64,000 nucleotides of DNA from a virus (taxonomy: Duplodnaviria > Caudoviricetes). Numbering within the stretch: position 1 is the stretch's first letter; the number at the start of each line of letters is the position of its first letter. Shown piece by piece: positions 2,364 to 60,441 of this stretch. The notes under the pieces are model-generated. The model ran no database searches and had not been told where the DNA came from. It saw only the letters and a list, made by a program, of their open reading frames with translations. The translations under genes and the position numbers were made by a program. Location of the stretch: positions 95-64,094 of IMG/VR virus record IMGVR_UViG_3300009684_000032, one strand, 5' to 3'.

Positions 2364-3902
2364 TTAAGTGGTCCAATTTGTTTGGATATACGTTATTGTA
2401 CCCGATGTTGTGCCGGTACTTGTATAATAAATTGTAATCACTGCACCACTAATTCCTGCACTGAATACCACAGACGCATCTGTGTTTAATTCTGTATTAG
2501 TATCGGATAGCTTTACAGTTACCGTATCTGATATTACGGATAATCTACCATTTCTACGATACGTGCCCAGTACTATAGCATAATCTACCCATGCAGTTAA
2601 CAGATTGGTTGCAGTAGCAACATCAAATGCAATACCCGTTGAGGTGTTCACTTGATTTGTGAGTATACTGTGACTTAACGGTGTAGGAGTATTGTTTACC
2701 AACTCTGTGGATTGTGTATTGTATACAGCATTGCGTGCAGGTGCACCGTTGTATATTTGTAAACTGCGTGTTATTTGGCTAAACACATCTCCCATACTGG
2801 AACAGCCTGTTGACAATGTATCCCAATATATTGCAGGCACCGAGTATACAGTACCCACTGTGTTATAAGTGTTGTTAAGACTAGTAACACCTCTGCGTCT
2901 AGTTGTTACACGCAACCCATATGATGCAATATTGTCAAACGTGTTATTGCTTATTTTGGTATATTGCGGTCCGCCGTCGCTGCTATGCAATAAACCTATG
3001 CCATAGTAACTATCGGTTAACACTGAACCGTCTACAGTTATGTAATCAATGGGATCGGCTGAATATATACCATAAACTACATTTGTGGCAGTAATGTCAT
3101 TGAATGACAAATATTCGGTTGTAACAGCAGTGCCAAGACTTTCTATTGTAATGCCATTGCCAGCAGATGTATTAGTACCGCCTTGTACCCATCCACCTAT
3201 TAATTTGCACGATGCTATAGATATGTTATTGCAACGTTGTAATAGCACAACAGGATTTATTACATCAACACTGCCATCGAGGCTAAAACCGTCTACAGAA
3301 ATACTTGTGGGAATTATACCACCATTGGTACCTATGTTGGCACCAACTTGTCCAAGACTATCAGCAGTTCGCAATATGGGACCCACAAAGCCGGACTGCA
3401 ATTGTATAATGGATCTGTCTACACCGTCGCCTATCAATGTGACATAGGGATAGAGATTTATGCTTGCTGATATTAGATACGTGCCTGCTGGAAAATAAAT
3501 TGAATTCCTACTTTGTGTGTATCCATAGGGATTTGCAGAAATCCTTGCCCATTCATCGTCGATAGCAGCTTGAATTGCAGCGGTATCATCTGTCACACCG
3601 TCGCCCACTGCGCTATAGTCCTTGACGCATAGTGTATCGTCTAATATGCTGCCCAACGTGCGATAAGTAGGACCGGTTGATGCAGTGATACCGGTGTCAC
3701 CCATATATGCATGCTTGATAAGCTGATCATTGGGTCCCCACTGTGTCAATACCTGACTGTTACCTGTATAGGTATTACCATTACCTATAAACAATTCACG
3801 TGTGTCTAAACACCAACCTAACTCAGCTTCGTTTAAGTTAGTGGGCAAATCTGCCCGTAGACCTCTGCGATGTTGAATTCTACTAATTGATATGATAGCC
3901 AT
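2364..3902 (-). CDS. Virion fibre/spike protein: Mtd-N-like N-terminus plus pectate-lyase-3-type beta-helix
   Basis: RIQHRRG...LNEAELGWCLDTRELFIGNG; VKDYSAVGDGVTDDTAAIQAAID...IYFPAGTYLIS followed by beta-helix-like repeats. Confidence 0.75.
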   Translation of the reverse strand: MAIISISRIQHRRGLRADLPTNLNEAELGWCLDTRELFIGNGNTYTGNSQVLTQWGPNDQLIKHAYMGDTGITASTGPTYRTLGSILDDTLCVKDYSAVGDGVTDDTAAIQAAIDDEWARISANPYGYTQSRNSIYFPAGTYLISASINLYPYVTLIGDGVDRSIIQLQSGFVGPILRTADSLGQVGANIGTNGGIIPTSISVDGFSLDGSVDVINPVVLLQRCNNISIASCKLIGGWVQGGTNTSAGNGITIESLGTAVTTEYLSFNDITATNVVYGIYSADPIDYITVDGSVLTDSYYGIGLLHSSDGGPQYTKISNNTFDNIASYGLRVTTRRRGVTSLNNTYNTVGTVYSVPAIYWDTLSTGCSSMGDVFSQITRSLQIYNGAPARNAVYNTQSTELVNNTPTPLSHSILTNQVNTSTGIAFDVATATNLLTAWVDYAIVLGTYRRNGRLSVISDTVTVKLSDTNTELNTDASVVFSAGISGAVITIYYTSTGTTSGTITYIQTNWTT

Positions 3903-3926
3903 GCTGACATCCTAATACTTGCTGAG

Positions 3927-3933
3927 TATTTAT
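3927..3933 (-). promoter_or_regulatory. T4-late-like promoter box ATAAATA
   Basis: Intergenic, 25 nt upstream of the fibre gene ATG; same motif recurs before many structural genes. Confidence 0.65.
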
Positions 3934-3946
3934 CGGGATGTCTATG

Positions 3947-4642
3947 TCAAGTTGCAGTGCTGTCGAATACATGGTTGTTGTAGTATTGTTCAACACGTTT
4001 GCTCCATAGCAATGTGCTTTCTTCAAATTCTATACCGGTCCACACAAACTTTTGGAATTCACATTCTCTGCTGCACATGAGAACCACTGTGGTTTTAATA
4101 TCAGTGCCATGTAACAGATTATGAGACATTGCATATGCTGCAAGCTGCAAGCGGTAGTCTTCAACCCATTCTCGTTTTTTGGGTTTGATAGTTGTTTTGA
4201 AGTCTATAATTGCAGGCTGTCCTTGCCACATGCCAACCAAGTCAGTAGTACCGGCCCACAAGTTATGATAATGCAAGTGTGCTTCTACGCCCCAAACTTC
4301 ATCTACATGTACCAGACCTTCCGTGATGATAGTGTCTGCCATCTTTTTGGCCATAACTCTACCATAATTGGTACCACCGGGCCGTGCTTGTCCCAGAACA
4401 TATGCTTCTAAGTGAGCATGCATGGTAGTACCCAGTCCAGCACTTTCTGCTGAAATTCTATTTGCGTTGTCCTCACCTTTACGCTTTCGCCAAGCAATAA
4501 GGTGTTCCATGTCTTTGGTAGCACTGAGTATTGTTGTAACGCTGGGCATACCATTGCCAGCTTCATCTACATAGACACGGCCTTGTGCGCCGCCGTCTTG
4601 TCTGTCTAACTTTTTATATGTGTATATGGGATTGTACTGCAT
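3947..4642 (-). CDS. PD-(D/E)XK exonuclease (T4-like phage exonuclease / MGME1-like)
   Basis: PSVTTIL, GTTMH, E...AGTTD...IIDFKT, QLAAYA motifs. Confidence 0.88.
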   Translation of the reverse strand: MQYNPIYTYKKLDRQDGGAQGRVYVDEAGNGMPSVTTILSATKDMEHLIAWRKRKGEDNANRISAESAGLGTTMHAHLEAYVLGQARPGGTNYGRVMAKKMADTIITEGLVHVDEVWGVEAHLHYHNLWAGTTDLVGMWQGQPAIIDFKTTIKPKKREWVEDYRLQLAAYAMSHNLLHGTDIKTTVVLMCSRECEFQKFVWTGIEFEESTLLWSKRVEQYYNNHVFDSTAT

Positions 4643-4648
4643 GTAGCA

Positions 4649-4677
4649 ATTATATCACATGTGTAAATCAGTGTCTA
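4649..4677 (-). promoter_or_regulatory. Sigma70-like promoter, predicted leaderless transcript
   Basis: TAGACA-N17-TATAAT (extended TGn), 6 nt before the ATG at 4642; no SD. Confidence 0.7.
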
Positions 4678-4689
4678 ATGAATAATTTA

Positions 4690-5184
4690 TTATTGTGTAA
4701 TCGAAGCTTCGAGACTTTGCCAGTTATCCTGACCTGCCATTTTTTTAGCAACTGATTTTTGTTTTGATATTTTTTCAGGTTGTCCAGTACCGCTTTCGTC
4801 ATGAGTGAGTACAGCATACAATTTAATAACCCGTGGATTTGAACCAGATATGGTGTACCATAATGATATATCAAATGTTAAATGTACTTTGCGCATACCG
4901 GGTATTTCAGTAGCAAACGGCCTGTTAATTGTTGATATTTTGTCAGTAGGGCCGGCAGGTTTGATACCGTTTTCAACTTTAAAATTTAAAAATGTATCAA
5001 TTTTAGATTCTAATTCAGGATATTTGTCAATATGAGTGCTGCTGGTATCCAAATACATAGGACACATTTTAATTATAGTAGAAGGTGTATCTGCTTGCTT
5101 GTTATCGCTAACCAATGGCAGCTTTTGCACATTTGGTTTTTTTATCGATTCAACTGCCGCACCGATTAATTCATATAATCTCAT
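4690..5184 (-). CDS. YafQ/RelE-like ribonuclease with a capsid-targeting-like N-terminus
   Basis: RKVHLTFDISLWYTI...IKLYAVLTHDE matches the YafQ pattern H-I-x-x-D-x-x-L-x-Y...L-x-x-x-x-T-H; begins MRLYELIGAAVES. Confidence 0.6.
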   Translation of the reverse strand: MRLYELIGAAVESIKKPNVQKLPLVSDNKQADTPSTIIKMCPMYLDTSSTHIDKYPELESKIDTFLNFKVENGIKPAGPTDKISTINRPFATEIPGMRKVHLTFDISLWYTISGSNPRVIKLYAVLTHDESGTGQPEKISKQKSVAKKMAGQDNWQSLEASITQ

Positions 5185-5187
5185 ACG

Positions 5188-5388
5188 TTATTTTGTCCTA
5201 TTTTTACGGTAATTGCGCATCGCATCCATTGCATCTTTCACCGAAGTGACAGTCTGCCAATTATCGGAGTTATGCGAATTAACCATTTCAACAAGATCAT
5301 CGGTACTGACACCGGATTGATTGTCAGTGTCAATCGCTTCATACAGAGCGTTATCATTGTAATTGGTAACATCGTTGCGTTTCATCAC
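5188..5388 (-). CDS. Small acidic protein, possible antitoxin partner
   Basis: 66 aa, stop 3 nt before the RelE-like ATG; C-terminal TVTSVKDAMDAM resembles DinJ/RelB tails; AAGGA SD. Confidence 0.45.
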   Translation of the reverse strand: MMKRNDVTNYNDNALYEAIDTDNQSGVSTDDLVEMVNSHNSDNWQTVTSVKDAMDAMRNYRKNRTK

Positions 5389-5407
5389 AGTGGTCCTTGT
5401 GCTGCTG

Positions 5408-5414
5408 TATTTAT
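5408..5414 (-). promoter_or_regulatory. T4-late-like promoter box ATAAATA
   Basis: Directly upstream of the 66-aa / RelE-like gene pair. Confidence 0.6.
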
Positions 5415-5445
5415 TATAGTCAACATAACAGATTATGACACGTTG

Positions 5446-5700
5446 TCAACCGGATAATTTATCCGGATGGTGTAATCGTGTCATCATATCTGCCAGGACT
5501 TCTGCACGACTTGCAGACTCTGCATTCATCTTTAGTTGTTTAATATTAAGTAGACCTTTGATGATGTTGGGCTTTTCATTAAGTGCTCGAATTTCATCGT
5601 CTGTCATGTTGTAACATGCAGCGACCAATGCCTGCTCTCTAGGCTTTTTGCTTTTGAGCAGATAAGTCTCTGGACCGTACAGGGTACTGCGCATATTCAT
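5446..5700 (-). CDS. Hypothetical protein (84 aa)
   Basis: ORF with AAGGA SD. Confidence 0.65.
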   Translation of the reverse strand: MNMRSTLYGPETYLLKSKKPREQALVAACYNMTDDEIRALNEKPNIIKGLLNIKQLKMNAESASRAEVLADMMTRLHHPDKLSG

Positions 5701-5715
5701 TGTGATTGTCCTTTG

Positions 5716-7179
5716 TTATCCCAACCATGAATCATTTGGCAATGATCCTTCTAATTTTTTATCGTAGTTTTTCAATGCTTTTTCTGTCAACCACGACTGT
5801 ACATCTATATTCTGTAGTTCTTTAATGAGACTGTTGACTTCTTTAATTCGGCGTATACGGGTATTGAGATCATTATCTCGGTATTTCCAGTCTATATTGC
5901 TATGGTAGTACTCTAATTCATCTTCAATCAGTGGGAATAGCGGCTGACTGCGATGCAACATTAGCGTATTGCCAAAACTGAACCTTGTGTTTTTTTGCCA
6001 GCCCAGTTTGAAAATATGCCTGATACAAGCTAGAGTATGCTGATGGTCAGCTTCTGTTTCAGTGGGATACCCTACAATCATCAACAACACATGCGGTATA
6101 TCATAGTTGTTTAGCATCGCCAAACAATGCCACATGTCATCGTCGGTGAACTTTTTACCCATGTGGTATCGTATATCCTGACTGAAACTTTCCAGTCCGA
6201 TTTCAAGCATGGAGCAGCCACTGGCTTTCATGCTTTGATAATCTTCCTCGGGGCTTTGATGTTTAGGACGTATGATCCATTGACTTACCCAACTGAAATC
6301 ACTATTGGTTTGTCTATAGTTGATCAACGACTTCATTAAATTTCTAAATGCTTTCATGCTGCCGTTAATCAAGCTGTCTGTGAACAGGAATGTTTTTCTG
6401 TCGTATTTTTCTTTTATCTCGATAATTTCTTGTGCAATGTATTCACCATCTCTGAAATAATAGTCAGGCCATATCCTGTATACATTGCAAAATGTACAAC
6501 GTTTAACACAGCCTCTACTGCCTGTAATATATACAGGATGCGGATGACCTTCATTTTGATATTCAGACCAATCTATATCATCATAGTTTGGTATCATGAC
6601 ACTGTTGAGGTCAGTGACTTGGTTGGGATCTAATGAGTTGATACCTTTACCAGTAAAGTTGCCTTTTAAGTAATCGATAATGCTGGCTTCACCGTCGCCG
6701 TAAATGTAATCATCACAGTAGCCCAGTTCTTGAAACACATGTATACCGTATTCAATGGCTGCGCCGCCCCATAGTATTCGTATGTGAGGACAATGAATTT
6801 TAAGCAGCACTCCCAGTTTGGCTGCAACTGCCACGCTGTGTGCAGACAACAAACTCATACCAATGATACGGGGATTTTTTTGTTTTATAAACTCAATCCA
6901 GTCTAAGAACACATACTCCAGTGTGTTGTAGAATTTGACAAAGTCCGGATGTAGCTCTGGATGATCATGTTCCAATGCAAAAATGTAATCATCTTCAAAA
7001 TAGTAATTTTGTAAATTGTGTTGTTTTGCTGCATTGAACAGCTTCACATTGAAGTCTACAACTTCGCAGGTCATGCCGTGGGCTTCGATATGCGATTTTA
7101 ACACTGCTGGACCAACTGTGGGTGCATCGGGATTTATCTTTGGGATAATGCCTATCAGTATATCTAGCTGTGCGGTCAT
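5716..7179 (-). CDS. Cobalamin-binding radical SAM enzyme (class B methyltransferase-like)
   Basis: N-terminal B12-binding-like domain (GMSLLS, WGGA, GDGE); SRGCVKRCTFC; GLESFS; IVGYPTETE. Confidence 0.9.
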   Translation of the reverse strand: MTAQLDILIGIIPKINPDAPTVGPAVLKSHIEAHGMTCEVVDFNVKLFNAAKQHNLQNYYFEDDYIFALEHDHPELHPDFVKFYNTLEYVFLDWIEFIKQKNPRIIGMSLLSAHSVAVAAKLGVLLKIHCPHIRILWGGAAIEYGIHVFQELGYCDDYIYGDGEASIIDYLKGNFTGKGINSLDPNQVTDLNSVMIPNYDDIDWSEYQNEGHPHPVYITGSRGCVKRCTFCNVYRIWPDYYFRDGEYIAQEIIEIKEKYDRKTFLFTDSLINGSMKAFRNLMKSLINYRQTNSDFSWVSQWIIRPKHQSPEEDYQSMKASGCSMLEIGLESFSQDIRYHMGKKFTDDDMWHCLAMLNNYDIPHVLLMIVGYPTETEADHQHTLACIRHIFKLGWQKNTRFSFGNTLMLHRSQPLFPLIEDELEYYHSNIDWKYRDNDLNTRIRRIKEVNSLIKELQNIDVQSWLTEKALKNYDKKLEGSLPNDSWLG

Positions 7180-7267
7180 TGTACTACTTTCGATAACGTG
7201 CCTAACATGCTATTATACAGTATCCAGTGCACCTTCAAAATTAATAGTTGTAGATACGTTGGATGTA

Positions 7268-8095
7268 TTAATTGAGTTTTTGCCAGTCTACGCCGCTTCT
7301 ATGTCTACTATTAGGACCTTTAAGACGTTGGTTGTCGCCGATGCCACCGCGAGTTTTAGTTGTTGTTACGGCAACTGACGGTTTAGATTGTCTATTAATC
7401 AAATGTTCTGTTCGTAGTTCTATCCAATTTGGTAATCTTCTAAGGTGATAATCAACTGTAGAGTTTTGTACATTTAAACCAAGCATCTTAGGAATACTAC
7501 TTGCAACATATCCTTTACGATACAGATCTGCCATCTGTTGCACTTGCTCTGGAGTTGTACCAACTGTCAACCCCTGCTGCCCGTATCGTAATTTTTTTAT
7601 TTCTTTATATTTGTCAATACCAATCAATCTATACAACAGTTTAGGTATAGTACTAATATCTATTCCGAATTGATTGGCAATGTCAGTTGCAGATGCACCA
7701 TTTAAGAATGAATCTTTAATTTTTTCCATATCTTCGTCGGTTAATGCTCGTCCCAACATTAAATTTTTATTTTGACGTTCTGGATATTTAAGTTCTAGTA
7801 TTCTATTAACTTGTCTAAGAGAAATACCAAGATCTTTAGAAATTGCAGTAGGACCTTTACCTTCATCCCACAACATTTTTACTAGCTCAATAGTATCGTT
7901 ATCTATAGGCTGTTGTAGTCTTACTCTGTCTGTATAATGTCGTTTTATTATGTGTTGAACCTGGCTTACACTTAATCCAATTTCATTTGCAATTTTACTT
8001 GCACTATCACCGTTATCTCGTTTTGTTTTTATTAGATCAATAGTTTGCTGATCGTATTTGGTAGAGGCTTCTGTTATAAATTCACTTGCTCTCAC
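7268..8095 (-). CDS. Multi-HTH DNA-binding protein with a capsid-targeting-like leader
   Basis: Four HTH repeats (G-x-S-x-x-x-I-A-x-x-x-G...); GTG start, MRASEFITE/A. Confidence 0.7.
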   Translation of the reverse strand: MRASEFITEASTKYDQQTIDLIKTKRDNGDSASKIANEIGLSVSQVQHIIKRHYTDRVRLQQPIDNDTIELVKMLWDEGKGPTAISKDLGISLRQVNRILELKYPERQNKNLMLGRALTDEDMEKIKDSFLNGASATDIANQFGIDISTIPKLLYRLIGIDKYKEIKKLRYGQQGLTVGTTPEQVQQMADLYRKGYVASSIPKMLGLNVQNSTVDYHLRRLPNWIELRTEHLINRQSKPSVAVTTTKTRGGIGDNQRLKGPNSRHRSGVDWQKLN

Positions 8096-14908: not shown

Positions 14909-15560
14909 TTATCAATATCCGTTTCAATTCAGATTTAACATTCATTGCTTGGTCTAGGGCTTTTTGATACTTGGTTGCATAGATATCTTCTTTTATCATG
15001 TCGCCTGCACGTTCTGCTTTACGATGTCTTATTTTAGCAGACATTGCATCTACTCTATGACTTGTATAACGGCTGTCTACTTCAAACAATTTGTTAACTC
15101 GCGGATCATTGACAAATTTGTTATCATTTAACAATTTTACTACACCTAGTGCAACTTCGTACAGTGTAATATCATCTGCAATCACAGTACCAGATGCTGC
15201 ATGTTCTATACAATAATATTGTTTACCTGCAATTCTGCGTTCGTTTGTTAATATGCCTATTTTATAACCGCCTACATTAACTGCACGATCTGTACGGCTG
15301 GTCATTATGTCCATTTTTGTTTCCACATCGCCATTGCTTTCCAGCATTACCTGATGTGTAACTTTGTTGAGTTTTTCTAAAACATTGGCCATTGCATTGA
15401 TTTCGCCCTGTGTAATAACACCCGGACCACTTATTTCAATAGCTTCGTTCATCTGTTTCGAATTGCCGTAACTAACAGCCGGTGGCGGTGTTTCGCCATT
15501 CATTATGGCCATCATTCTGGCCATTGCTTCGCGTTCTGCATCAGTGACGTTTGCCATCAA
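14898..15560 (-). CDS. Hypothetical protein (220 aa)
   Basis: ORF coupled to neighbours by overlap. Confidence 0.7.
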   Translation of the reverse strand: MMANVTDAEREAMARMMAIMNGETPPPAVSYGNSKQMNEAIEISGPGVITQGEINAMANVLEKLNKVTHQVMLESNGDVETKMDIMTSRTDRAVNVGGYKIGILTNERRIAGKQYYCIEHAASGTVIADDITLYEVALGVVKLLNDNKFVNDPRVNKLFEVDSRYTSHRVDAMSAKIRHRKAERAGDMIKEDIYATKYQKALDQAMNVKSELKRILINGN

Positions 15561-15787
15561 TCTCTCTCCGCATATCCTACATCATTAAAGGAATAATATA
15601 CTTTACCCTCAATTACTGCGCGATCCAAAACTCCTCTAAACACTAATTGTCTAGCAAGTTCGCGTTCACGCTCATTTAGTTCTTTACGAAGTAACGGTTC
15701 ATTGTGTCCTCTAACACGTTCCATTACAAGCATTTCATCATTGCTAACTGGTACCATTAGTCCACCAGTTATCTCTATAAATTTCAT
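15557..15787 (-). CDS. Small hypothetical protein, possibly winged-helix
   Basis: LNERERELARQLVFRGVLDR; TAATG and ATGA coupling. Confidence 0.6.
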   Translation of the reverse strand: MKFIEITGGLMVPVSNDEMLVMERVRGHNEPLLRKELNERERELARQLVFRGVLDRAVIEGKVYYSFNDVGYAERD

Positions 15788-17673: not shown

Positions 17674-17880
17674 TTATGTGGTTTTGCGGCTCTTTTTACG
17701 CTTAGCTGGTGCAGGCGCATCAGCAGGGATATATCCAAACAAACTGGGACGACGATTTATTGCACCCATTGGATTGGCAACACTGGCAATACTGCCCGCA
17801 GCAGTGCTACCTGCAGATGCACTTTCAATAATATCTAAAAATGGCTTGTCTTTTTTATTAGCAATATCTTTAAGTTTCAT
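17674..17880 (-). CDS. Small head-associated peptide
   Basis: MKLKDI...IIE/SASAGSTAAGSIASVANP; TAAATA at 17915-17920; AAGGA SD. Confidence 0.6.
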   Translation of the reverse strand: MKLKDIANKKDKPFLDIIESASAGSTAAGSIASVANPMGAINRRPSLFGYIPADAPAPAKRKKSRKTT

Positions 17881-21975: not shown

Positions 21976-22848
21976 TTAGTTTTTATAGAGTACTTTGTGG
22001 AAAACGCCATCGTTAACTATTAACGTACCAAGGGCTCGTACACTAATTGGATTTTGATCACCTGCCCATACAGGTATGAATCCAAATCTTACCCAATATG
22101 CATTACAGCTAAAATTAAACAGTGTTGGGCCTTCATCACCGTTGTTTGTATGATCAAATATGTAAAATGGGCTGCTTGGAGTTAAAGGAATATAAAACCA
22201 TTCTTGTGGCAAGGGTGAATCATTTTGCAAACTAGCCTGTACAAAAAATGATCCTATCCACTTGGTTTGATATACAGCAACCGTATGCAATCCTCCGGCT
22301 TTTTGCACTTGTGCATCACCTGGGTATGCGCCGCTGAGGAACATAATATCGTCTGCTAGCCCCAATGGCGTCTGTGTAAACTGTGCTGCTAATATTTCTG
22401 TAGCAGGAACTTCGGCACGCAATACACCGTCAAACAATTGAAAATTGCCAGTTGCAGTTTTATTGATATCAGTATAGAATAACTGTTGAACGCCGTTGAC
22501 GTTTGTTACTCGTACTGTGTAATCATAATAGTTTGCAGTCCAATCTTCTATGTCACCCGGATCAAGTGTGAGTCGAGCTTTGCCTTGCAATGGAACTGTT
22601 ACTTCCACTGGTTTGGTTATCATAATTTGACCGTTGTTTTGATTCTGGATAACGCATTCCATTTCCAATCCAACTAGATTTACCGGTCGACGCTCGTTAT
22701 TTCTAATTACGAAATCCAGCGTATTGGTTACACCTTTGTAACATTTTATATCATACTGTATCATAGGCCAATTCACATATGCCGGGTTTGCATCCCACGA
22801 TACCAGCTGTATGTATTCCTTGAAACTGAATAGGAAGACTGTCGGCAT
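21976..22848 (-). CDS. Putative baseplate/structural protein (BppU-like Ig-type N-terminus)
   Basis: YKGVTNTLDFVIRN...PVNL...GKARLTL...YDYTV; late box upstream. Confidence 0.55.
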   Translation of the reverse strand: MPTVFLFSFKEYIQLVSWDANPAYVNWPMIQYDIKCYKGVTNTLDFVIRNNERRPVNLVGLEMECVIQNQNNGQIMITKPVEVTVPLQGKARLTLDPGDIEDWTANYYDYTVRVTNVNGVQQLFYTDINKTATGNFQLFDGVLRAEVPATEILAAQFTQTPLGLADDIMFLSGAYPGDAQVQKAGGLHTVAVYQTKWIGSFFVQASLQNDSPLPQEWFYIPLTPSSPFYIFDHTNNGDEGPTLFNFSCNAYWVRFGFIPVWAGDQNPISVRALGTLIVNDGVFHKVLYKN

Positions 22849-22876
22849 GGCATTCCATTTTATATATACCCTGTAA

Positions 22877-22890
22877 GTATTTATAAATAC
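22877..22890. promoter_or_regulatory. Palindromic bidirectional late promoter GTATTTATAAATAC
   Basis: TATAAATA on both strands, between divergent genes starting at 22848 and 22913. Confidence 0.75.
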
Positions 22891-22912
22891 CTATGAGCAG
22901 GGCATAGCACAC

Positions 22913-23287
22913 ATGATAGATACCAAACACGTATTGCAGGAAAAGTTTCCATTTCTTACAATTATACGACATCTCAACAATGAATACCTCGGCATTATAC
23001 AAAATGCAGATCAATTATTTGTCAGTATGTATATCATGGATAATACATTCACTGAGCAAATGAAGAAAAACTTTATGGAATGCGGAGACACATGGTGGTG
23101 GGAAAGCAATCGTCAAATTCCCATAAACATGTTCATCAAAGAACGTTTTGCAGAATTCAAGCCCAATCTGCGAGTGTTTGCCAGTAAAGACACGGAAATA
23201 GTGCAAGGGCCCATCGTTAATCTCAAAGACACTATGAACAAGCGTGTCAAACGTAGAACTATACAGCTGGTGAGAATAACTCAATGA
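22913..23287 (+). CDS. Hypothetical protein (124 aa)
   Basis: FPFLT...YLGIIQN...WWWESNRQIPINMF. Confidence 0.7.
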   Translation: MIDTKHVLQEKFPFLTIIRHLNNEYLGIIQNADQLFVSMYIMDNTFTEQMKKNFMECGDTWWWESNRQIPINMFIKERFAEFKPNLRVFASKDTEIVQGPIVNLKDTMNKRVKRRTIQLVRITQ

Positions 23288-30397: not shown

Positions 30398-32023
<1,626 letters not shown>

Positions 32024-32037
32024 TTATACTCCTACCA

Positions 32038-32328
32038 TTAGTTAAAAACTGCGAAGATTTCATCTTCTTTTAACACCAAAAGGTCTTCGCCTTGGTGTTT
32101 AATTTGAGTACCTGCATGTTTGCCAAAAAGTACTCTGTCTGCCACTTTAACTTCCAGTGGGATGTAATCGCCGTTGCGGTTCTTTTTACCCTTGCCAACT
32201 GCTAGCACAATACCCTGATCAGGTTTTTCTGCAACAGTGTCTGGGATAACGAGACCACCTTTGGTGACAGTATCACTGTCCACCCGTTTGACTACGACCC
32301 TATCATTAAGCGGTCTTAGCTCTGTCAT
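32038..32328 (-). CDS. groES: Co-chaperonin GroES
   Basis: [12 protein letters not shown]...TKGGLVIPD...EKPDQG...VLFGK. Confidence 0.97.
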
Positions 32329-43278: not shown

Positions 43279-44094
43279 TTATCCTTTTTTTACAAATTCT
43301 GGTTTATTTGGTGCCCGCGGAGAGGAAAAGTTGACACGTTTGCCGTTGGCATCTTGATAGAATTTATACAAGTGTGCTGCACCGTCATCGAAATTGCCTT
43401 CTGCTCCCAATCCACTGCGCGGCGTAGGATTGGGGACATTACCTGCAACCTTTGTCACAGGCTTAGGTGTATCGTATCTTGCATTAAAATCTGCCATATC
43501 TTGTACAGGCTCTAATGGTTTTACTTTGTTCATATCCAACCAAGTAAACAATGGCGCTGGCGCATTGTATTCGTCAGTTGGTCTAGTTTGTTTTATAGAT
43601 GCTAGATAATCTAAGAAACGTTTGTTATAAGCATCGCCGTATATATCTGTAGTAACCGGCTGCTCTACATCCTGATACATTCTATCAGTGCTTAGACGAG
43701 GTGCAGCTTTTAAATCCATGTCTGCTGCTTTTTTTCTAAACCCAAGATCAATTATGTGACGATCCACATTTGTTTCTACAGGTTCCGTTGCAGTACGCAC
43801 AACTATTAGTTTTTCAGCAACGTTTAACACATCGCGCAGGCCTTGCATAGTAACATAACTGCTAAGCGGCTGTCCTGTTATGAAATTGATTTGATATACA
43901 GTGTGATTTTGCACATCTATGAAATCCATATTGTCGCCTGCTAGCAGTTGCGGTGCAGTAATGTCCATCAAATTAAATTGCTGTAGATAATTTGCTAATG
44001 ACGTGCATTGTTCTTCAGTTGGTTCTACAACCAACTTAATTACATAGCCGTATTCTCTAGCATTTTCTGCTAGATATTGCTTAAATGACTTCAT
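43279..44094 (-). CDS. Head-associated protein with a T4-like capsid targeting sequence
   Basis: MKSFKQYLAE resembles the T4 internal-protein CTS MKTYQEFIAE; CTAAATA at 44119-44125. Confidence 0.7.
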   Translation of the reverse strand: MKSFKQYLAENAREYGYVIKLVVEPTEEQCTSLANYLQQFNLMDITAPQLLAGDNMDFIDVQNHTVYQINFITGQPLSSYVTMQGLRDVLNVAEKLIVVRTATEPVETNVDRHIIDLGFRKKAADMDLKAAPRLSTDRMYQDVEQPVTTDIYGDAYNKRFLDYLASIKQTRPTDEYNAPAPLFTWLDMNKVKPLEPVQDMADFNARYDTPKPVTKVAGNVPNPTPRSGLGAEGNFDDGAAHLYKFYQDANGKRVNFSSPRAPNKPEFVKKG

Positions 44095-58219: not shown

Positions 58220-58936
58220 TTATAACTTTCCAAATGCATATAACCGTTCTAGACAAAAATAGCATGTACCACAATGTGCAGGGTCTGTATACTGTGCTTG
58301 CATATCATTTTCGCAAGACCAAGTATACGGATACAACTCGTCTAATACATTATAATCGTTATATATGCCATACACAACTCTTTTATCGTGTTCTGCAAAT
58401 GGCAAATACAGTGCAGTATTGCCTATATTAGAAATAGTAGGCGCAGTAGCGACATCGCGAGATATATCGCGTGTTTCTAAAGATTTTAAACATGCAATTT
58501 TGTCTACATCGTCTGACATAGCTGCTATCATTTGCATCATGTCATATTCAGGACAGTTGACCGACATACCTGCATATCTTGCGTCAATCTCAAGTTCATC
58601 AAACACAACAGCTTCTAAATCTTCTTGCCCTTTGGTATATTCATAGGAATTGATATCCCATGCATTTTGTGCATTATGACTGTCGTGGAATAGTGTATAG
58701 TGTTGAGTAGCCATCCTGCCCGTTAACCTGTTTACTATACGAATAACATCTTGTGCTTTACATATTGCATGCGGCCGCAATGGGCTAGCCATAGTATATG
58801 GATATATGTTAACAGATGCATCGTTTTTATAAAATTCACATATAGCATGATATATAATTGCACTATCCGGACCACCAGATAGTCTTACTGCTATATTGCG
58901 ATGATGACGGTCGAGTGGTATTACAGTATCTATCAC
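58220..58936 (-). CDS. QueC-like PP-loop ATPase (second paralogue)
   Basis: SGGPDSA; TWSC...HCGTCYFCLER. Confidence 0.8.
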   Translation of the reverse strand: MIDTVIPLDRHHRNIAVRLSGGPDSAIIYHAICEFYKNDASVNIYPYTMASPLRPHAICKAQDVIRIVNRLTGRMATQHYTLFHDSHNAQNAWDINSYEYTKGQEDLEAVVFDELEIDARYAGMSVNCPEYDMMQMIAAMSDDVDKIACLKSLETRDISRDVATAPTISNIGNTALYLPFAEHDKRVVYGIYNDYNVLDELYPYTWSCENDMQAQYTDPAHCGTCYFCLERLYAFGKL

Positions 58937-60441
58937 AACTCTGTCCTATAATCTTTATCTGTTAGCACATTATCGTAGCGACGTAATTCTTTATCAATCA
59001 TCCATCCAGAATTTGTTTTATTATTCAGCTGTTGAATAAGTTCATTTATTTCTTTAAAACGTCTTGCACGTACTGCGAGTGTATTGCCTTTATAATCCCA
59101 TTCGAATGCATTTTTAAAATTGGTTATGTCGTCTTTTACAAGATCCCACAACAAATGATCGTCTGACAACATTAATGTATTACCAAAACTTAAATATAAT
59201 AATGTGTCACCGTTTTTGTTTGTTGCATCTGCATAACCCAAATTATACAATCGCCGTATAGTGTTTAACGTATGCTGATGGTCATCTTCAGTTTCAGTAG
59301 GGTAACCTACTATCATTAATAATGTATGTTTAATCTGGTACTTGCGCAGCATATCAAAACACCACCACATATCGTCGTCTGTGAATTTTTTACCCATGTG
59401 ATATCTCACATGTTGGCTAAAAGACTCAATGCCTATATCAAGCTCTGCACAACCACTATCTGCCATTAACTGATAATCTGTCTCCGGCGATTGTGATTTA
59501 GATCTAACTATCCATTGACTCGCCCATTGGAAATTATTATCAGTTTTATGATAGTCTGCCAGTTCTGTTAATAATGATCTAAAAGATTTCATACTGCCGT
59601 TTATTAAACTGTCTGTAAATTTAAAGAATTGACGATTATATTGTTGTCTAACTGCAATAATTTCGTCTGCTATATGACGACCTGATCTAAATCTATATTC
59701 AGGCCACAGTTGATATACATTACAGAATGTGCAGCGTTTTACACAGCCTCTGCTACCAGTTATATAAACAGGATTGGTATAATCTATAGTCTTATATTCA
59801 TCCCATTTGATATCATCGTAATTTGGAAGCATTACTGTGTTTAAATCGAGAACTTGATTTGGATTCAACGAATCTATACCGTTAGATGTCAAGTTACCTT
59901 TTAACAATTCAACTATACTAAATTCACCGTCGCCGGAAATATAATGATCAAGTATACCTATGTCTTTAAATTTCTGTATACCATTTGCTATTTGAGCACC
60001 TCCCCATACAATTTTAGTATTAGGTAAATGTTCTCTTATTAATATACTGAGTTGTATTGCAACAGAATTACTGTACATAGATAAAATACTTAAACCTATC
60101 CACGTTGGATTTCGAATCTTAAAGTCTTCTATCCATTCCATGAATATATGACGATTTTCTTCATAAAAATCTATAAAATCTTGACTAAAATAAATCAGAT
60201 TTCGTTCTACATCTAGATCATTATGATGTGTACTAAAAAGACTGTCGTGCTCAAAAAAATAATAATCATGTTTGTTGATAGATTTTAAGCTATTATACAA
60301 TCTAATATTTAGATCCATCACTTCGCAACTAAAACCTGCATACATTAAATGCGATTTCAATACAGCTGGTCCAACAGTGGGAGCATCAGGGTTTATTTTA
60401 GGTATTATACAAATAATAATATCTGTCATTGCTACATCCAT
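58933..60441 (-). CDS. Cobalamin-binding radical SAM enzyme (paralogue of 5716-7179)
   Basis: IIPKINPDAPTVGPAVLKSH, SRGCVKRCTFC, IVGYPTETE. Confidence 0.9.
   Translation of the reverse strand: MDVAMTDIIICIIPKINPDAPTVGPAVLKSHLMYAGFSCEVMDLNIRLYNSLKSINKHDYYFFEHDSLFSTHHNDLDVERNLIYFSQDFIDFYEENRHIFMEWIEDFKIRNPTWIGLSILSMYSNSVAIQLSILIREHLPNTKIVWGGAQIANGIQKFKDIGILDHYISGDGEFSIVELLKGNLTSNGIDSLNPNQVLDLNTVMLPNYDDIKWDEYKTIDYTNPVYITGSRGCVKRCTFCNVYQLWPEYRFRSGRHIADEIIAVRQQYNRQFFKFTDSLINGSMKSFRSLLTELADYHKTDNNFQWASQWIVRSKSQSPETDYQLMADSGCAELDIGIESFSQHVRYHMGKKFTDDDMWWCFDMLRKYQIKHTLLMIVGYPTETEDDHQHTLNTIRRLYNLGYADATNKNGDTLLYLSFGNTLMLSDDHLLWDLVKDDITNFKNAFEWDYKGNTLAVRARRFKEINELIQQLNNKTNSGWMIDKELRRYDNVLTDKDYRTEL

What the first reader, a model, noticed from the sequence alone, without database searches (positions are those of the whole stretch)
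4690..5414. Late-expressed YafQ/RelE-like RNase with a capsid-targeting-like leader and an antitoxin-like partner: possible virion-delivered toxin
Seen: the 164-aa ORF has VHLTFD..LWY...LYAVLTHDE, matching the His/Asp/His layout of YafQ-type ribosome-dependent RNases, behind an extension MRLYELIGAAVE/S like the leaders of this phage's head proteins. It follows a 66-aa acidic ORF with a DinJ/RelB-like tail but no recognisable DNA-binding domain, and both sit under a late box. Established: T4 packages internal proteins via a short N-terminal CTS cut after Glu. Inference: the RNase is held inactive during assembly, packaged, and injected without its inhibitor to reshape host translation, or it acts in superinfection exclusion.
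Basis: partly seen in the sequence, partly recalled or inferred. Interest (0 to 1): 0.75.

Follow-up and report, generated by a model that had tools for sequence, protein, structure and literature searches.

The report
Jumbo-phage YafQ-like RNase with inhibitor
A fragment of a giant freshwater phage carries a gene for an RNA-cutting enzyme built like bacterial RelE/YafQ toxins, next to a small acidic protein predicted to hold it in check; the pair recurs in many uncultured giant phages, and its leader looks like the tag phage T4 uses to load proteins into its head.

Summary
The two ORFs exist, both on the minus strand: 164 aa (4690-5184) and 65/66 aa (5188-5385/5388).

The 164-aa protein has a YafQ/YoeB/RelE fold. 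AF2 gave pLDDT 88.9. Foldseek matched solved toxins at TM 0.75-0.81. The family profile hit HP0892 at E 0.0017, and hhalign to E. coli YafQ gave E 1.5e-4. It keeps the equivalents of YafQ H63, D67 and H87, and H128 is invariant in 131 of 131 relatives.

The small acidic protein lies directly upstream, or is fused, in every related viral locus I could check. It is predicted to bind the RNase (0.83 against best control 0.07). It is three helices with no likeness to DinJ/RelB.

The pair belongs to an undescribed family (300 clusters) of uncultured jumbo phages plus Ralstonia phage RsoM2USA.

A T4-type late box precedes it here, and in 25 of 36 related loci against 18 of 341 control genes. Many loci also have a sigma-70-like promoter.

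The leader belongs to a recurrent class resembling the T4 capsid-targeting sequence, but the partner carries it too. Virion delivery is plausible (about 0.35) and untested.

The parts
4690..5184 (-). 164-aa ORF: YafQ/RelE-fold putative endoribonuclease (stop codon 4690-4692)
   Evidence: ORF. AF2 mean pLDDT 88.9. Foldseek against PDB: YoeB/ParE 6n90, YafQ 4q2u/4ml0/4mmj, HP0894, with TM(target) 0.75-0.81 and rmsd 2.1-2.3 over about 93 columns. 300 relatives at E<=1e-3.
5149..5184 (-). Leader, residues 1-12 (MRLYELIGAAVE), ending in A-V-E before S13
   Evidence: Read from the sequence. pLDDT 62-66 with helix 3-11. 47 of 160 family proteins start M[KR]x2-3[DE][FILVM], one of them a fragment. Resembles the T4 CTS MKTYQEFIAE (passage in PMC8442874). 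Its function is inferred.
5083..5148 (-). Basic Lys/Pro/Gln-rich linker, residues 13-34 (SIKKPNVQKLPL...)
   Evidence: pI 9.52. Low pLDDT. An 'hxE-[AS]-K-K' junction followed by a Pro/basic linker recurs in relatives.
4792..5082 (-). RelE/YafQ-fold core, residues 35-131 (strand, two helices, three strands)
   Evidence: Secondary structure and pLDDT 94-98. Foldseek. Profile hit to HP0892 at E 0.0017 over chain residues 3-89 of 94.
4882..4884 (-). Codon of H101, aligned with YafQ H63
   Evidence: hhalign. His in 101 of 131 relatives. The neighbouring column 99 is His in 118 of 131 and Lys here.
4870..4872 (-). Codon of D105, aligned with YafQ D67
   Evidence: hhalign. Asp in 123 of 131 relatives and Asn in 8.
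4801..4803 (-). Codon of H128, aligned with YafQ H87 (the general acid in YafQ)
   Evidence: hhalign. His in 131 of 131 relatives. The role of H87 comes from PMC4652777 passages.
4693..4791 (-). C-terminal extension, residues 132-164 (GTGQP...KQKSVAKKM...), absent from canonical YafQ/RelE
   Evidence: Predicted helix 139-150 and strand 156-160, with block-mean pLDDT 98 to 90 over residues 131-160. G132 is invariant; T133, G134, P136 and Q142 are highly conserved. Function unknown.
5188..5385 (-). 65-aa acidic partner ORF (66 aa if read from GTG 5388); stop codon 5188-5190, 3 nt before the RNase ATG
   Evidence: pI 4.79. AF2 gives three helices, pLDDT 73.6. A homologue lies directly upstream of the core gene in 55 of 61 sources by HMM plus position filter, with the other 6 explained.
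5197..5262 (-). Partner residues 42-63: the predicted RNase-binding strand and helix
   Evidence: Interface residues 42-49, 51-53, 55-56, 59-60 and 63 touch RNase residues 35-42, 45-70, 121 and 152.
5338..5346 (-). Partner L14-Y15-E16: the invariant L-x-E
   Evidence: L14 and E16 are invariant in 29 of 29 aligned partners. Reading it as a protease site is inference.
5408..5415 (-). Late-promoter-like box aATAAATA, starting 29 nt before ATG 5385
   Evidence: ATAAATA lies within 40 nt upstream of the partner gene in 25 of 36 related loci against 18 of 341 control genes.
5394..5398 (-). Shine-Dalgarno-like AAGGA for the partner ORF
   Evidence: Read from the sequence.
5413..5441 (-). Sigma-70-like promoter GTGTCA-17-TATAAT overlapping the late box (a second, TTGACA-16-TATGTT, lies at 5422-5449)
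   Evidence: Consensus scan, 10 of 12 matches each. This is a consensus match only.

Best explanation
This is a phage-borne, toxin-antitoxin-like two-gene module.

Shown by computation:
- The downstream gene encodes a basic protein with the YafQ/YoeB/RelE microbial-RNase fold. It keeps the equivalents of YafQ's H63, D67 and the indispensable general acid H87.
- It also has a family-specific C-terminal helix and strand and an N-terminal leader.
- The upstream gene lies 3 nt away. It encodes an acidic three-helix protein of no known family.
- The partner's C-terminal strand and helix are predicted to lie on strand 1 and helices 1-2 of the RNase.

Inferred:
- The RNase cuts mRNA on the ribosome, as YafQ does.
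- The partner keeps it inert by covering the face whose counterpart in YafQ binds 16S rRNA.
- The operon is read from a T4-type late promoter, and probably also from a sigma-70-type promoter.

Where the enzyme acts is not settled. My split is:
- About 0.35 that it is an effector made in the producing cell, kept harmless by the partner, and loaded into the head through the T4-CTS-like leader for the next host.
- About 0.35 that it acts inside the infected cell as a RegB-like switch of translation.
- The rest for other roles.
For: Fold:
- AF2 mean pLDDT 88.9, with residues 35-160 above 90.
- Foldseek against PDB is led by YoeB/ParE, YafQ, HP0894 and YoeB chains: TM(target) 0.75-0.81, rmsd 2.1-2.3.

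Sequence:
- The family profile hits H. pylori toxin HP0892 at E 0.0017.
- 15 of 131 relatives hit Pfam YafQ_toxin, best E 1.3e-4.
- 6 of 18 hit NCBIfam RelE_StbE, and 2 of 18 hit the YafQ family.
- hhalign to E. coli YafQ: E 1.5e-4, probability 51%.

Residues:
- H128 is His in 131 of 131 and D105 is Asp in 123 of 131. Column 99 or column 101 is usually His.
- The roles of the YafQ residues come from PMC4652777 passages.

Partner:
- By HMM and position it lies directly upstream in 55 of 61 sources. The other 6 are 2 fusions, 3 that overlapped more than my filter allowed, and 1 divergent copy seen by eye.
- Complex score 0.83 against best control 0.07. That mark was reached by 58 of 80 solved complexes and 2 of 110 mismatched pairs. 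The runs share at least 67% of contacts, and partner pLDDT is at least 55.
- Charge complementarity: the family core has median pI 9.58 (n=160) and the partners 4.45 (n=29).

Promoter.
Against: - No curated model reaches its cut-off. The window's own protein has 0 Pfam families and only TIGR02385 at 13.5 bits against a cut-off of 27.9.
- The equivalents of YafQ H50 and F91 are not kept. The window has Lys where 118 of 131 relatives have His.
- hhalign probability is only 51%.
- The partner has no likeness to any known antitoxin, and its own pLDDT in the complex is 55-61.
- RelE-family toxin-antitoxin complexes are solved, so the complex pass may partly reflect that likeness.
- I used my own alignments, so the calibration counts hold only roughly.
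- No activity, toxicity or expression was measured. The one RNA run laid showed no contig over the pair, which proves nothing either way.
Confidence: 0.75

Rival explanations
1. Virion-delivered effector. The leader is a T4-type capsid-targeting sequence. The RNase enters the prohead core, alone or carried by its leader-bearing partner. A gp21-type prohead protease cuts after Glu (A-V-E12 in the RNase, L-x-E16 in the partner). The enzyme is then injected with the DNA to cut host mRNA on ribosomes. The partner protects the producing cell.
For: - The T4 CTS is MKTYQEFIAE, cut once beside it (PMC8442874 passage). T4, phiKZ and SPN3US proteases cut after Glu, and SPN3US cuts at A-X-E (PMC5694885 passages).
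- 47 of 160 family proteins (one a fragment) start M[KR]x2-3[DE][FILVM], for example MRAFEFITEA. Many others have an hxE-[AS]KK junction.
- Of the 26 locus-derived partners listed, 25 begin with a MKINEV-type N-terminus. L14 and E16 are invariant in 29 of 29 aligned partners.
- In the window, 6 of 71 genes carry the motif against 1 of 481 internal Met. In a complete 343-kb relative it is 15 of 503 against 7 of 1972.
- Window 43279-44094 (a PHROG 'virion structural protein') and RsoM2USA ORF89 share only their first 11 residues, MKSFKQYLAEN and MKTFKQFLSES. ORF89 was one of 10 virion bands identified by mass spectrometry (PMC8504454 passage).
- A Peptidase_S77 (gp21-type) gene is present in 4 of 5 large records that carry the pair, and one is annotated in RsoM2USA.
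- The late box is conserved.
- Fusions to GNAT, NUDIX and GH19 domains recall injected polyvalent proteins (PMC7824862 passage).
- Effector-plus-immunity logic would explain why a lytic phage keeps an inhibitor.
Against: - No virion data exist for either protein.
- 53 of 160 family proteins have no leader.
- The motif also sits on the UvsX-like recombinase, so it can arise by chance.
- 0 of 10 leader-bearing proteins of the 343-kb relative match a PHROG with a virion label: 3 hit PHROGs of unknown function and 7 hit nothing.
- The leader here (MRLYELIGAAVE) is a looser match to the T4 CTS than others in the family.
- Sigma-70-like promoters point to early expression as well.
- The pair is not linked to head genes in the large records.
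- No protease gene lies in this 64-kb fragment, which CheckV rates 12% complete, so this is uninformative.
Confidence: 0.35
2. In-cell RegB-like regulator. The RNase works only inside the infected cell. It cuts host mRNAs, or earlier phage mRNAs, on ribosomes to redirect translation. The partner sets the timing, for example by being less stable. The N-terminal motif has another purpose or none.
For: - T4 RegB is a phage endoribonuclease with structural similarity to RelE and YoeB. It inactivates early mRNAs, and an anti-RegB partner has been suggested (PMC3014915 passages).
- Tandem sigma-70-like and late boxes suggest expression through the whole cycle.
- The pair sits among non-structural genes here, between an exonuclease and a radical SAM enzyme.
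Against: - RegB itself is not a close structural match. A 'site-specific RNA endonuclease' of a T4-like phage ranks 43rd in BFVD, at E 0.81 and probability 0.18.
- This reading does not explain the conserved leader class, the hxE junction, or why a tightly coupled inhibitor is kept in every locus checked.
Confidence: 0.35
3. Counter-defence decoy. The small protein's real task is to neutralise RelE/YafQ-type abortive-infection toxins of the host. The phage RNase is its co-evolving scaffold or a relic.
For: - Phage antitoxin mimics are a known idea, discussed for aquatic large phages in PMC12619734 passages.
- The partner is predicted to bind the conserved helices 1-2 face of the fold.
Against: - The RNase is the better conserved of the two, with an invariant catalytic His. 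The partner is only 15-34% identical among the loci.
- Fused forms exist.
- The family search found no free-standing partner, though I did not search for one.
Confidence: 0.1
4. A RelE-fold protein that is not an RNase, for example ParE-like or simply a ribosome binder.
For: - The top Foldseek hit is labelled YoeB/ParE, and ParE chains appear lower in the list.
- The equivalents of YafQ H50 and F91 are missing.
Against: - The H/D/H positions matching YafQ's catalytic set are the best conserved in the family.
- Every sequence-level hit is to RNase members: HP0892, HP0894, YafQ, RelE_StbE and YoeB.
Confidence: 0.07

Closest known systems
E. coli DinJ-YafQ and H. pylori HP0892/HP0894 (YafQ branch of the RelE/ParE superfamily, type II TA)
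   Same: - The same fold.
- The H63/D67/H87-equivalent residues.
- A basic toxin with an acidic partner.
- The partner gene lies immediately upstream and is tightly coupled.
- The partner's C-terminal part is predicted to wrap the toxin.
   Different: - It falls below every curated sequence cut-off.
- It has an extra conserved C-terminal helix and strand and an N-terminal leader.
- There is no H50 or F91 equivalent.
- The partner is three helices with no ribbon-helix-helix and no likeness to DinJ.
- It is carried by lytic-type jumbo phages, not by chromosomes or plasmids. A scan of one genome per 185,579 prokaryote species with close-relative patterns found none.
- It is preceded by a phage late box.
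Phage T4 RegB endoribonuclease
   Same: A phage-encoded RNase with RelE/YoeB-like architecture that inactivates mRNA (PMC3014915 passages).
   Different: - There is no significant structural or sequence match (BFVD rank 43, E 0.81).
- RegB is transcribed from an early promoter and has no known inhibitor.
- This family has a dedicated partner and a late box.
Phage T4 internal proteins and Alt (CTS-targeted, protease-processed, injected head proteins)
   Same: - A short N-terminal leader of similar pattern, ending in Glu.
- Otherwise unrelated proteins share the leader.
- A gp21-type protease is present in related genomes.
- A late promoter box.
   Different: - No evidence of packaging.
- T4 cargo is not known to include a RelE-type RNase or an enzyme-inhibitor pair (recalled, not searched exhaustively).
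- The leader here is longer and looser.
Polyvalent injected proteins of phages and effector-immunity pairs of polymorphic toxin systems
   Same: Family members are fused to GNAT, NUDIX or GH19 domains behind the same kind of N-terminus. A toxic domain is kept with an adjacent neutralising protein.
   Different: Most members are small two-gene modules, not giant multidomain proteins. The analogy is inferred only.

Membership tests
RelE/ParE superfamily, YafQ-type mRNA interferase | Microbial-RNase fold: strand, two helices, antiparallel three-to-four-stranded sheet | tested here: met
   AF2 gives E36-40, H42-54, H57-72, E97-101, E106-113 and E118-127. Foldseek TM(target) is 0.75-0.81 to YoeB/ParE, YafQ, HP0894 and YoeB.
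RelE/ParE superfamily, YafQ-type mRNA interferase | Scores above the curated cut-off of a family model (Pfam PF15738, NCBIfam TIGR00053 or TIGR02385) | tested here: not met
   The window protein has 0 Pfam families. TIGR02385 scores 13.5 bits against a cut-off of 27.9. Relatives hit only below cut-off: 15 of 131 for PF15738, and 6 of 18 and 2 of 18 for NCBIfam.
RelE/ParE superfamily, YafQ-type mRNA interferase | Catalytic set H50, H63, D67, H87, F91 (PMC4652777) | tested here: inconclusive
   H101, D105 and H128 align with H63, D67 and H87. H50 aligns with K82, in a variable column. F91 has no aromatic counterpart.
RelE/ParE superfamily, YafQ-type mRNA interferase | Ribosome-dependent mRNA cleavage and growth arrest | not testable with these tools
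   Needs expression and cleavage assays.
Type II toxin-antitoxin module | An adjacent, co-oriented, tightly spaced gene for a small protein that binds the toxin | tested here: met
   The spacer here is 3 nt. The partner is conserved upstream or fused in related loci. Predicted binding scores 0.83 against 0.07. Binding itself is not shown.
Type II toxin-antitoxin module | An antitoxin with a DNA-binding domain that autoregulates the operon | tested here: not met
   No RHH, Phd/YefM, HTH or AbrB hit: 0 of 29 partners. Nothing in the PDB profile search. The AF2 model is three helices with no strand.
DinJ/RelB antitoxins | Sequence or profile likeness to DinJ/RelB | tested here: not met
   hhalign of the partner profile against E. 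coli DinJ gives probability 1.6%, sharing only a G-x-x-x-x-DLV-x-I patch.
T4-type CTS-bearing head-internal or injected protein | An N-terminal leader of about 10-20 aa like MKTYQEFIAE, ending in Glu | tested here: inconclusive
   MRLYELIGAAVE|S fits the pattern M-[KR]-x-x-E-hydrophobic...x-E, and A-X-E is a known giant-phage cleavage motif. The resemblance is loose. The class is enriched at N-termini.
T4-type CTS-bearing head-internal or injected protein | A gp21-type prohead protease in the same genome | tested here: inconclusive
   None lies in this 64-kb fragment, rated 12% complete. It is present in 4 of 5 large records with the pair and annotated in RsoM2USA.
T4-type CTS-bearing head-internal or injected protein | Present in virions with a processed N-terminus | not testable with these tools
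   The RsoM2USA paper identified only 10 abundant bands, and genes 114/115 were not among them. I could not see its supplements.
T4 RegB | Detectable likeness to RegB | tested here: not met
   BFVD rank 43, E 0.81, probability 0.18.

The most novel reading that the evidence does not exclude
Jumbo phages with T4-type heads load a RelE/YafQ-class ribosome-dependent RNase into the capsid. They do this through a T4-CTS-like leader carried by the RNase, by its acidic inhibitor, or by both. The prohead protease trims the leader after Glu and may destroy the inhibitor inside the head. An active translation-cutting enzyme is then injected with the DNA. If so, the wider class of M[KR]xxE-hydrophobic leaders, about 3% of genes in a complete relative, marks a whole repertoire of injected effectors.
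Probability: 0.25. Interest if true: 0.85.

Novelty: new variant of a known kind. Interest (0 to 1): 0.6.

Why it matters
RelE/YafQ toxins are textbook bacterial growth-arrest enzymes, and T4 RegB shows that phages use the same fold. Here a large family of uncultured giant phages keeps such an enzyme with a partner of no known family, under phage promoters. The family has 300 clusters at 50% identity and matches no Pfam or PHROG model.

The family offers three things:
- a new antitoxin fold to study;
- a natural series of split, fused and leader-bearing forms;
- a concrete way to ask whether T4-style capsid targeting exists in jumbo phages and what cargo it carries.

If the leader is a true targeting signal, it would also be a simple sequence tag for predicting injected proteins in metagenomic phage genomes.

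Tried and rejected
- Direct Pfam and PHROG scans of the two proteins: nothing useful.
- PADLOC: only a chance-level DruF hit for the partner, E 0.007.
- megablast of 3900-7200 against isolated phages: no match.
- The search for related loci with the large alignments A2 and A4 was rejected as not conserved enough. I used the smaller alignments A1, A5 and A6 instead.
- A genome-contig scan with A1 patterns found 14 pattern matches but no relative. This bears only on close relatives.
- The partner as a ribbon-helix-helix or DinJ-like protein: rejected. Weak EF-hand-like hits in 3 of 29 partners I regard as a helix-loop-helix resemblance only.
- The profile of the small alignment A6 against PDB gave nothing better than A2.
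- RegB likeness: rejected.
- Leader-bearing proteins of the 343-kb relative against PHROGs: 0 of 10 had a virion label, which is uninformative.
- Expression: one metatranscriptome run held 3 short contigs on the 3.3-kb stretch and none over the pair. A part without cover proves nothing.
- Complex prediction gave a pass, reported under evidence with its control. It says nothing about affinity.
- Two literature calls failed on term format and were re-sent corrected.
- Literature: a search for 'jumbo phage' + 'RelE' + 'antitoxin' found 100 papers, of which I saw 10 in the listing. 'rele' also matches 'release' and 'relevant'. I read passages of two of them. Neither describes this pair in what I saw. 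This does not show that it is unpublished.
Full report
**What is there.** The finding's coordinates hold two minus-strand ORFs.
- The first is a 164-aa ORF at 4690-5184.
- The second lies just upstream: a 66-aa ORF at 5188-5388 starting at GTG. An ATG at 5385 preceded by AAGGA is the likelier start, giving 65 aa.
- Three bases separate the first gene's stop from the second gene's ATG.
- The window is nearly the whole of a 64,094-nt virus record that CheckV rates 12% complete, so it is a fragment of a very large phage.
- Its other genes include a T4-type large terminase, tail-tube proteins, UvsX-like and gp32-like proteins, and large virion proteins. ORFs that read by eye as GroEL/GroES also lie at 30398-32328.

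**Relatives.**
- Neither protein matches Pfam. The 164-aa protein matches no PHROG.
- Among 50,697 isolated phage records, only Ralstonia jumbo phage RsoM2USA has a relative. There a 116-aa gene follows a 58-aa gene.
- In metagenome protein sets the family is large. 12 close proteins came from the word-based search. With their profile, 300 cluster representatives scored E<=1e-3, and 252 scored E<=1e-10.
- Three scans of IMG/VR gave loci on 55 different viral contigs, many of 100-360 kb.
- A scan of one genome per prokaryote species, using close-relative patterns, found none.

**Fold and catalytic residues.**
- AF2 with a 131-sequence alignment gives a confident model: mean pLDDT 88.9, with residues 35-160 mostly above 90.
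- The order of elements is strand, two helices, then three strands. An extra C-terminal helix (139-150) and strand (156-160) follow. Residues 1-34 have low confidence.
- The best Foldseek matches in the PDB are almost all RelE-superfamily toxins: YoeB/ParE 6n90, YafQ 4q2u/4ml0/4mmj, HP0894, YoeB and RelE. The leading ones have TM(target) 0.75-0.81 and rmsd 2.1-2.3 over about 93 columns.
- By sequence, the family profile finds H. pylori HP0892 at E 0.0017 over nearly its whole length. An unrelated chain scores E 0.036, and YafQ itself only 0.77.
- 15 of 131 relatives hit Pfam YafQ_toxin (best E 1.3e-4). 6 of 18 hit NCBIfam RelE_StbE, and 2 of 18 hit the YafQ family. All of these are below the curated cut-offs.
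- hhalign against E. coli YafQ gives E 1.5e-4 and probability 51%. It puts H101, D105 and H128 on YafQ H63, D67 and H87.
- Passages of PMC4652777 name H50, H63, D67, H87 and F91 as the functional residues, with H87 indispensable.
- In the family, H128 is His in 131 of 131 and D105 is Asp in 123 of 131. Column 101 is His in 101 of 131. The neighbouring column 99 is His in 118 of 131 and Lys in the window.
- H50 and F91 have no conserved counterpart.
- My reading is a YafQ-like RNase of a divergent branch. By fold it is a member of the superfamily. By curated sequence models it is not a recognised member.

**The partner.**
- An HMM of the small protein finds a homologue ending within 60 nt of the core gene's start in 55 of 61 sources that have a complete core ORF. 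These sources are the loci, some of them duplicates of one contig, plus RsoM2USA and the window.
- The other six are explained. Two are fusions in one ORF (L049, L050). Three have the small ORF overlapping more than my filter allowed (L025, L042, L054). One has a divergent small ORF, seen by eye (L011).
- There are 38 distinct partner sequences.
- Aligned, 29 of them share MKINEV...LFEA.D..NDTG..TEDLVKI...WS.P.T.DE. M1, L14 and E16 are invariant.
- The partners are acidic, with median pI 4.45. The RNase cores are basic, with median pI 9.58.
- AF2 gives three helices at pLDDT 73.6.
- There is no ribbon-helix-helix, no RelB/DinJ or Phd/YefM hit, and no likeness to E. coli DinJ (probability 1.6%).
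- The complex prediction supports binding. The score is 0.83 against a best control of 0.07. That mark was reached by 58 of 80 solved complexes and 2 of 110 mismatched pairs. The runs agree in at least 67% of contacts, and partner pLDDT is at least 55.
- Partner residues 42-63 (a strand, then a helix) lie on strand 1 and helices 1-2 of the RNase. By the hhalign register, these helices correspond to the YafQ surfaces whose basic patches are needed for 70S binding. Blocking ribosome access is therefore the inferred mode of inhibition.
- Two caveats apply. Toxin-antitoxin complexes of this superfamily are solved, so the pass may partly reflect that likeness. I also used my own alignments.

**Expression signals.**
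- TATAAATA occurs 5 times in the window. All five are intergenic and 13-37 nt before a start, including both tail-tube genes.
- The 7-mer ATAAATA occurs 13 times, against about 28 expected from shuffles. Eleven of these lie in the 6.6% that is non-coding.
- The copy before the partner gene is aATAAATA, starting 29 nt before the ATG.
- In 36 distinct upstream regions of partner genes elsewhere, ATAAATA lies within 40 nt of the start in 25. For other genes of the same loci the figure is 18 of 341.
- Ten of the 25 lie 24-38 nt upstream, as here. Fifteen lie 12-15 nt upstream, and nine of those leave exactly 5 nt before the ATG.
- That TATAAATA is the T4 late promoter is recalled knowledge.
- A sigma-70-like GTGTCA-17-TATAAT overlaps the box here. 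By eye, TTGACA-type boxes stand upstream in many of the related loci.
- 'Late-expressed' is therefore probably only half the picture.
- One lake metatranscriptome run held three short contigs on the 3.3-kb stretch and none over the pair, which shows nothing either way.

**The leader.**
- Residues 1-12 (MRLYELIGAAVE) are not conserved across the whole family. Of 160 family proteins, 53 start at the core and 47 start M[KR]x2-3[DE][FILVM], one of these being a fragment. The other 60 have other extensions.
- Many of those 60 are fused partners. Others have a short 'hydrophobic-x-E-[AS]-K-K' junction followed by a Pro/basic linker.
- Examples such as MRAFEFITEA and MRASEFINE, and the window's own 275-aa HTH protein (MRASEFITEAS), resemble the T4 capsid-targeting sequence MKTYQEFIAE. 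That sequence is cut once at its end (PMC8442874 passage).
- T4, phiKZ and SPN3US prohead proteases all cut after Glu, and SPN3US cuts at A-X-E (PMC5694885 passages).
- The motif is enriched at N-termini. In the window it marks 6 of 71 genes against 1 of 481 internal Met. In a complete 343-kb relative it marks 15 of 503 genes against 7 of 1972.
- One of the window's six is the UvsX-like recombinase, surely a chance match.
- Two window proteins with related N-termini match PHROGs labelled virion structural protein: the 76-aa protein and the 271-aa protein.
- That 271-aa protein and RsoM2USA ORF89 share only their first 11 residues, MKSFKQYLAEN and MKTFKQFLSES. ORF89 was one of ten virion bands identified by mass spectrometry (PMC8504454 passage). 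Unrelated proteins sharing a leader is the pattern of the T4 internal proteins.
- A gp21-type protease (Peptidase_S77) is encoded in 4 of 5 large records that carry the pair, and one is annotated in RsoM2USA.
- Against all this, 0 of 10 leader-bearing proteins of the 343-kb relative match a PHROG with a virion label. Nothing shows either protein of the pair in a virion. I could not see the RsoM2USA paper's supplementary tables.

**Other hints.**
- Some family members are fused to GNAT, NUDIX or GH19 domains, or sit behind long N-terminal domains that start with the same leader. This recalls the injected polyvalent proteins mentioned in PMC7824862. Such fusions could also be gene-calling artefacts.
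- T4 RegB is the known phage RNase of RelE/YoeB-like structure (PMC3014915). It is not a detectable relative here.

**Verdict.**
- The pair is best described as a phage-borne YafQ-like RNase with a new kind of inhibitor (confidence 0.75).
- The virion-delivery idea is not shown. It gains comparative support from the leader class, the invariant L-x-E in the partner, the conserved late box, and the logic of keeping an inhibitor in a lytic phage. I put it at about 0.35, level with an in-cell RegB-like role.
- I searched only two libraries and a few papers for prior description. Within those the family is undescribed.

Noticed in passing
window 7268-8095 (-), 15557-15787 (-), 17674-17880 (-), 43279-44094 (-): Several otherwise unrelated proteins start with T4-CTS-like leaders: MRASEFITEAS (a 275-aa protein with several HTH domains), MKFIEITGG (76 aa, PHROG virion structural protein), MKLKDIANKK...DIIE|SASAG (68 aa) and MKSFKQYLAEN (271 aa, PHROG virion structural protein). 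The last shares only its first 11 residues with RsoM2USA virion protein ORF89.
   Followed up: partly
L013, L015, L017, L022, L024, L036, L041, L044, L051 (upstream of the partner gene): In 9 related loci ATAAATA ends exactly 5 nt before the partner's ATG. T4 late-promoter geometry is recalled here. If it holds, the late transcript would start at the AUG and be leaderless. An upstream sigma-70-like promoter would instead give a leadered mRNA that uses the overlapping AGGA.
   Followed up: no
window 22876-22893: A palindromic TATTTATAAATA puts TATAAATA on both strands back to back, 31 and 37 nt before the divergent genes 22913-23287 (+) and 21976-22848 (-). It looks like a bidirectional late promoter.
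   Followed up: no
window 5716-7179 (-) and 58933-60441 (-): These are two paralogous enzymes sharing the N-terminal stretch IIPKINPDAPTVGPAVLKSH. For the first, Pfam gives B12-binding and radical-SAM domains. The second lies in a long run of ORFs at about 48-64 kb whose N-termini look enzyme-like to me. It may be a modification or biosynthesis cluster.
   Followed up: no
window 4649-4677 (-): A strong sigma-70-like promoter (TAGACA-17-TATAAT with TG, 11 of 12) stands between the RNase stop and the PD-(D/E)XK exonuclease gene (3947-4642). The exonuclease is therefore probably a separate, earlier transcription unit.
   Followed up: no
window 4642-5393: In a related strain (coded run X5, contigs 90-99% alike on the flanks), likeness stops at 4642, where a loose end of unlike letters begins, and resumes at 5393. 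The pair's region is thus more diverged than its flanks, or replaced. A protein 84% identical to the RNase exists elsewhere (P0002).
   Followed up: no
P0066, P0068, P0115, P0128, P0046/P0070 (family members from the representative search): The RelE-like core occurs fused to GH19 (chitinase/lysozyme-like), GNAT and NUDIX domains and to unannotated long N-terminal domains. Several of these begin with MRAxE/D-hydrophobic leaders.
   Followed up: partly
window 30398-32328 (-): Two adjacent ORFs (540 aa and 96 aa) whose N-termini read like phage-encoded GroEL and GroES. I judged this by eye and did not test it.
   Followed up: no
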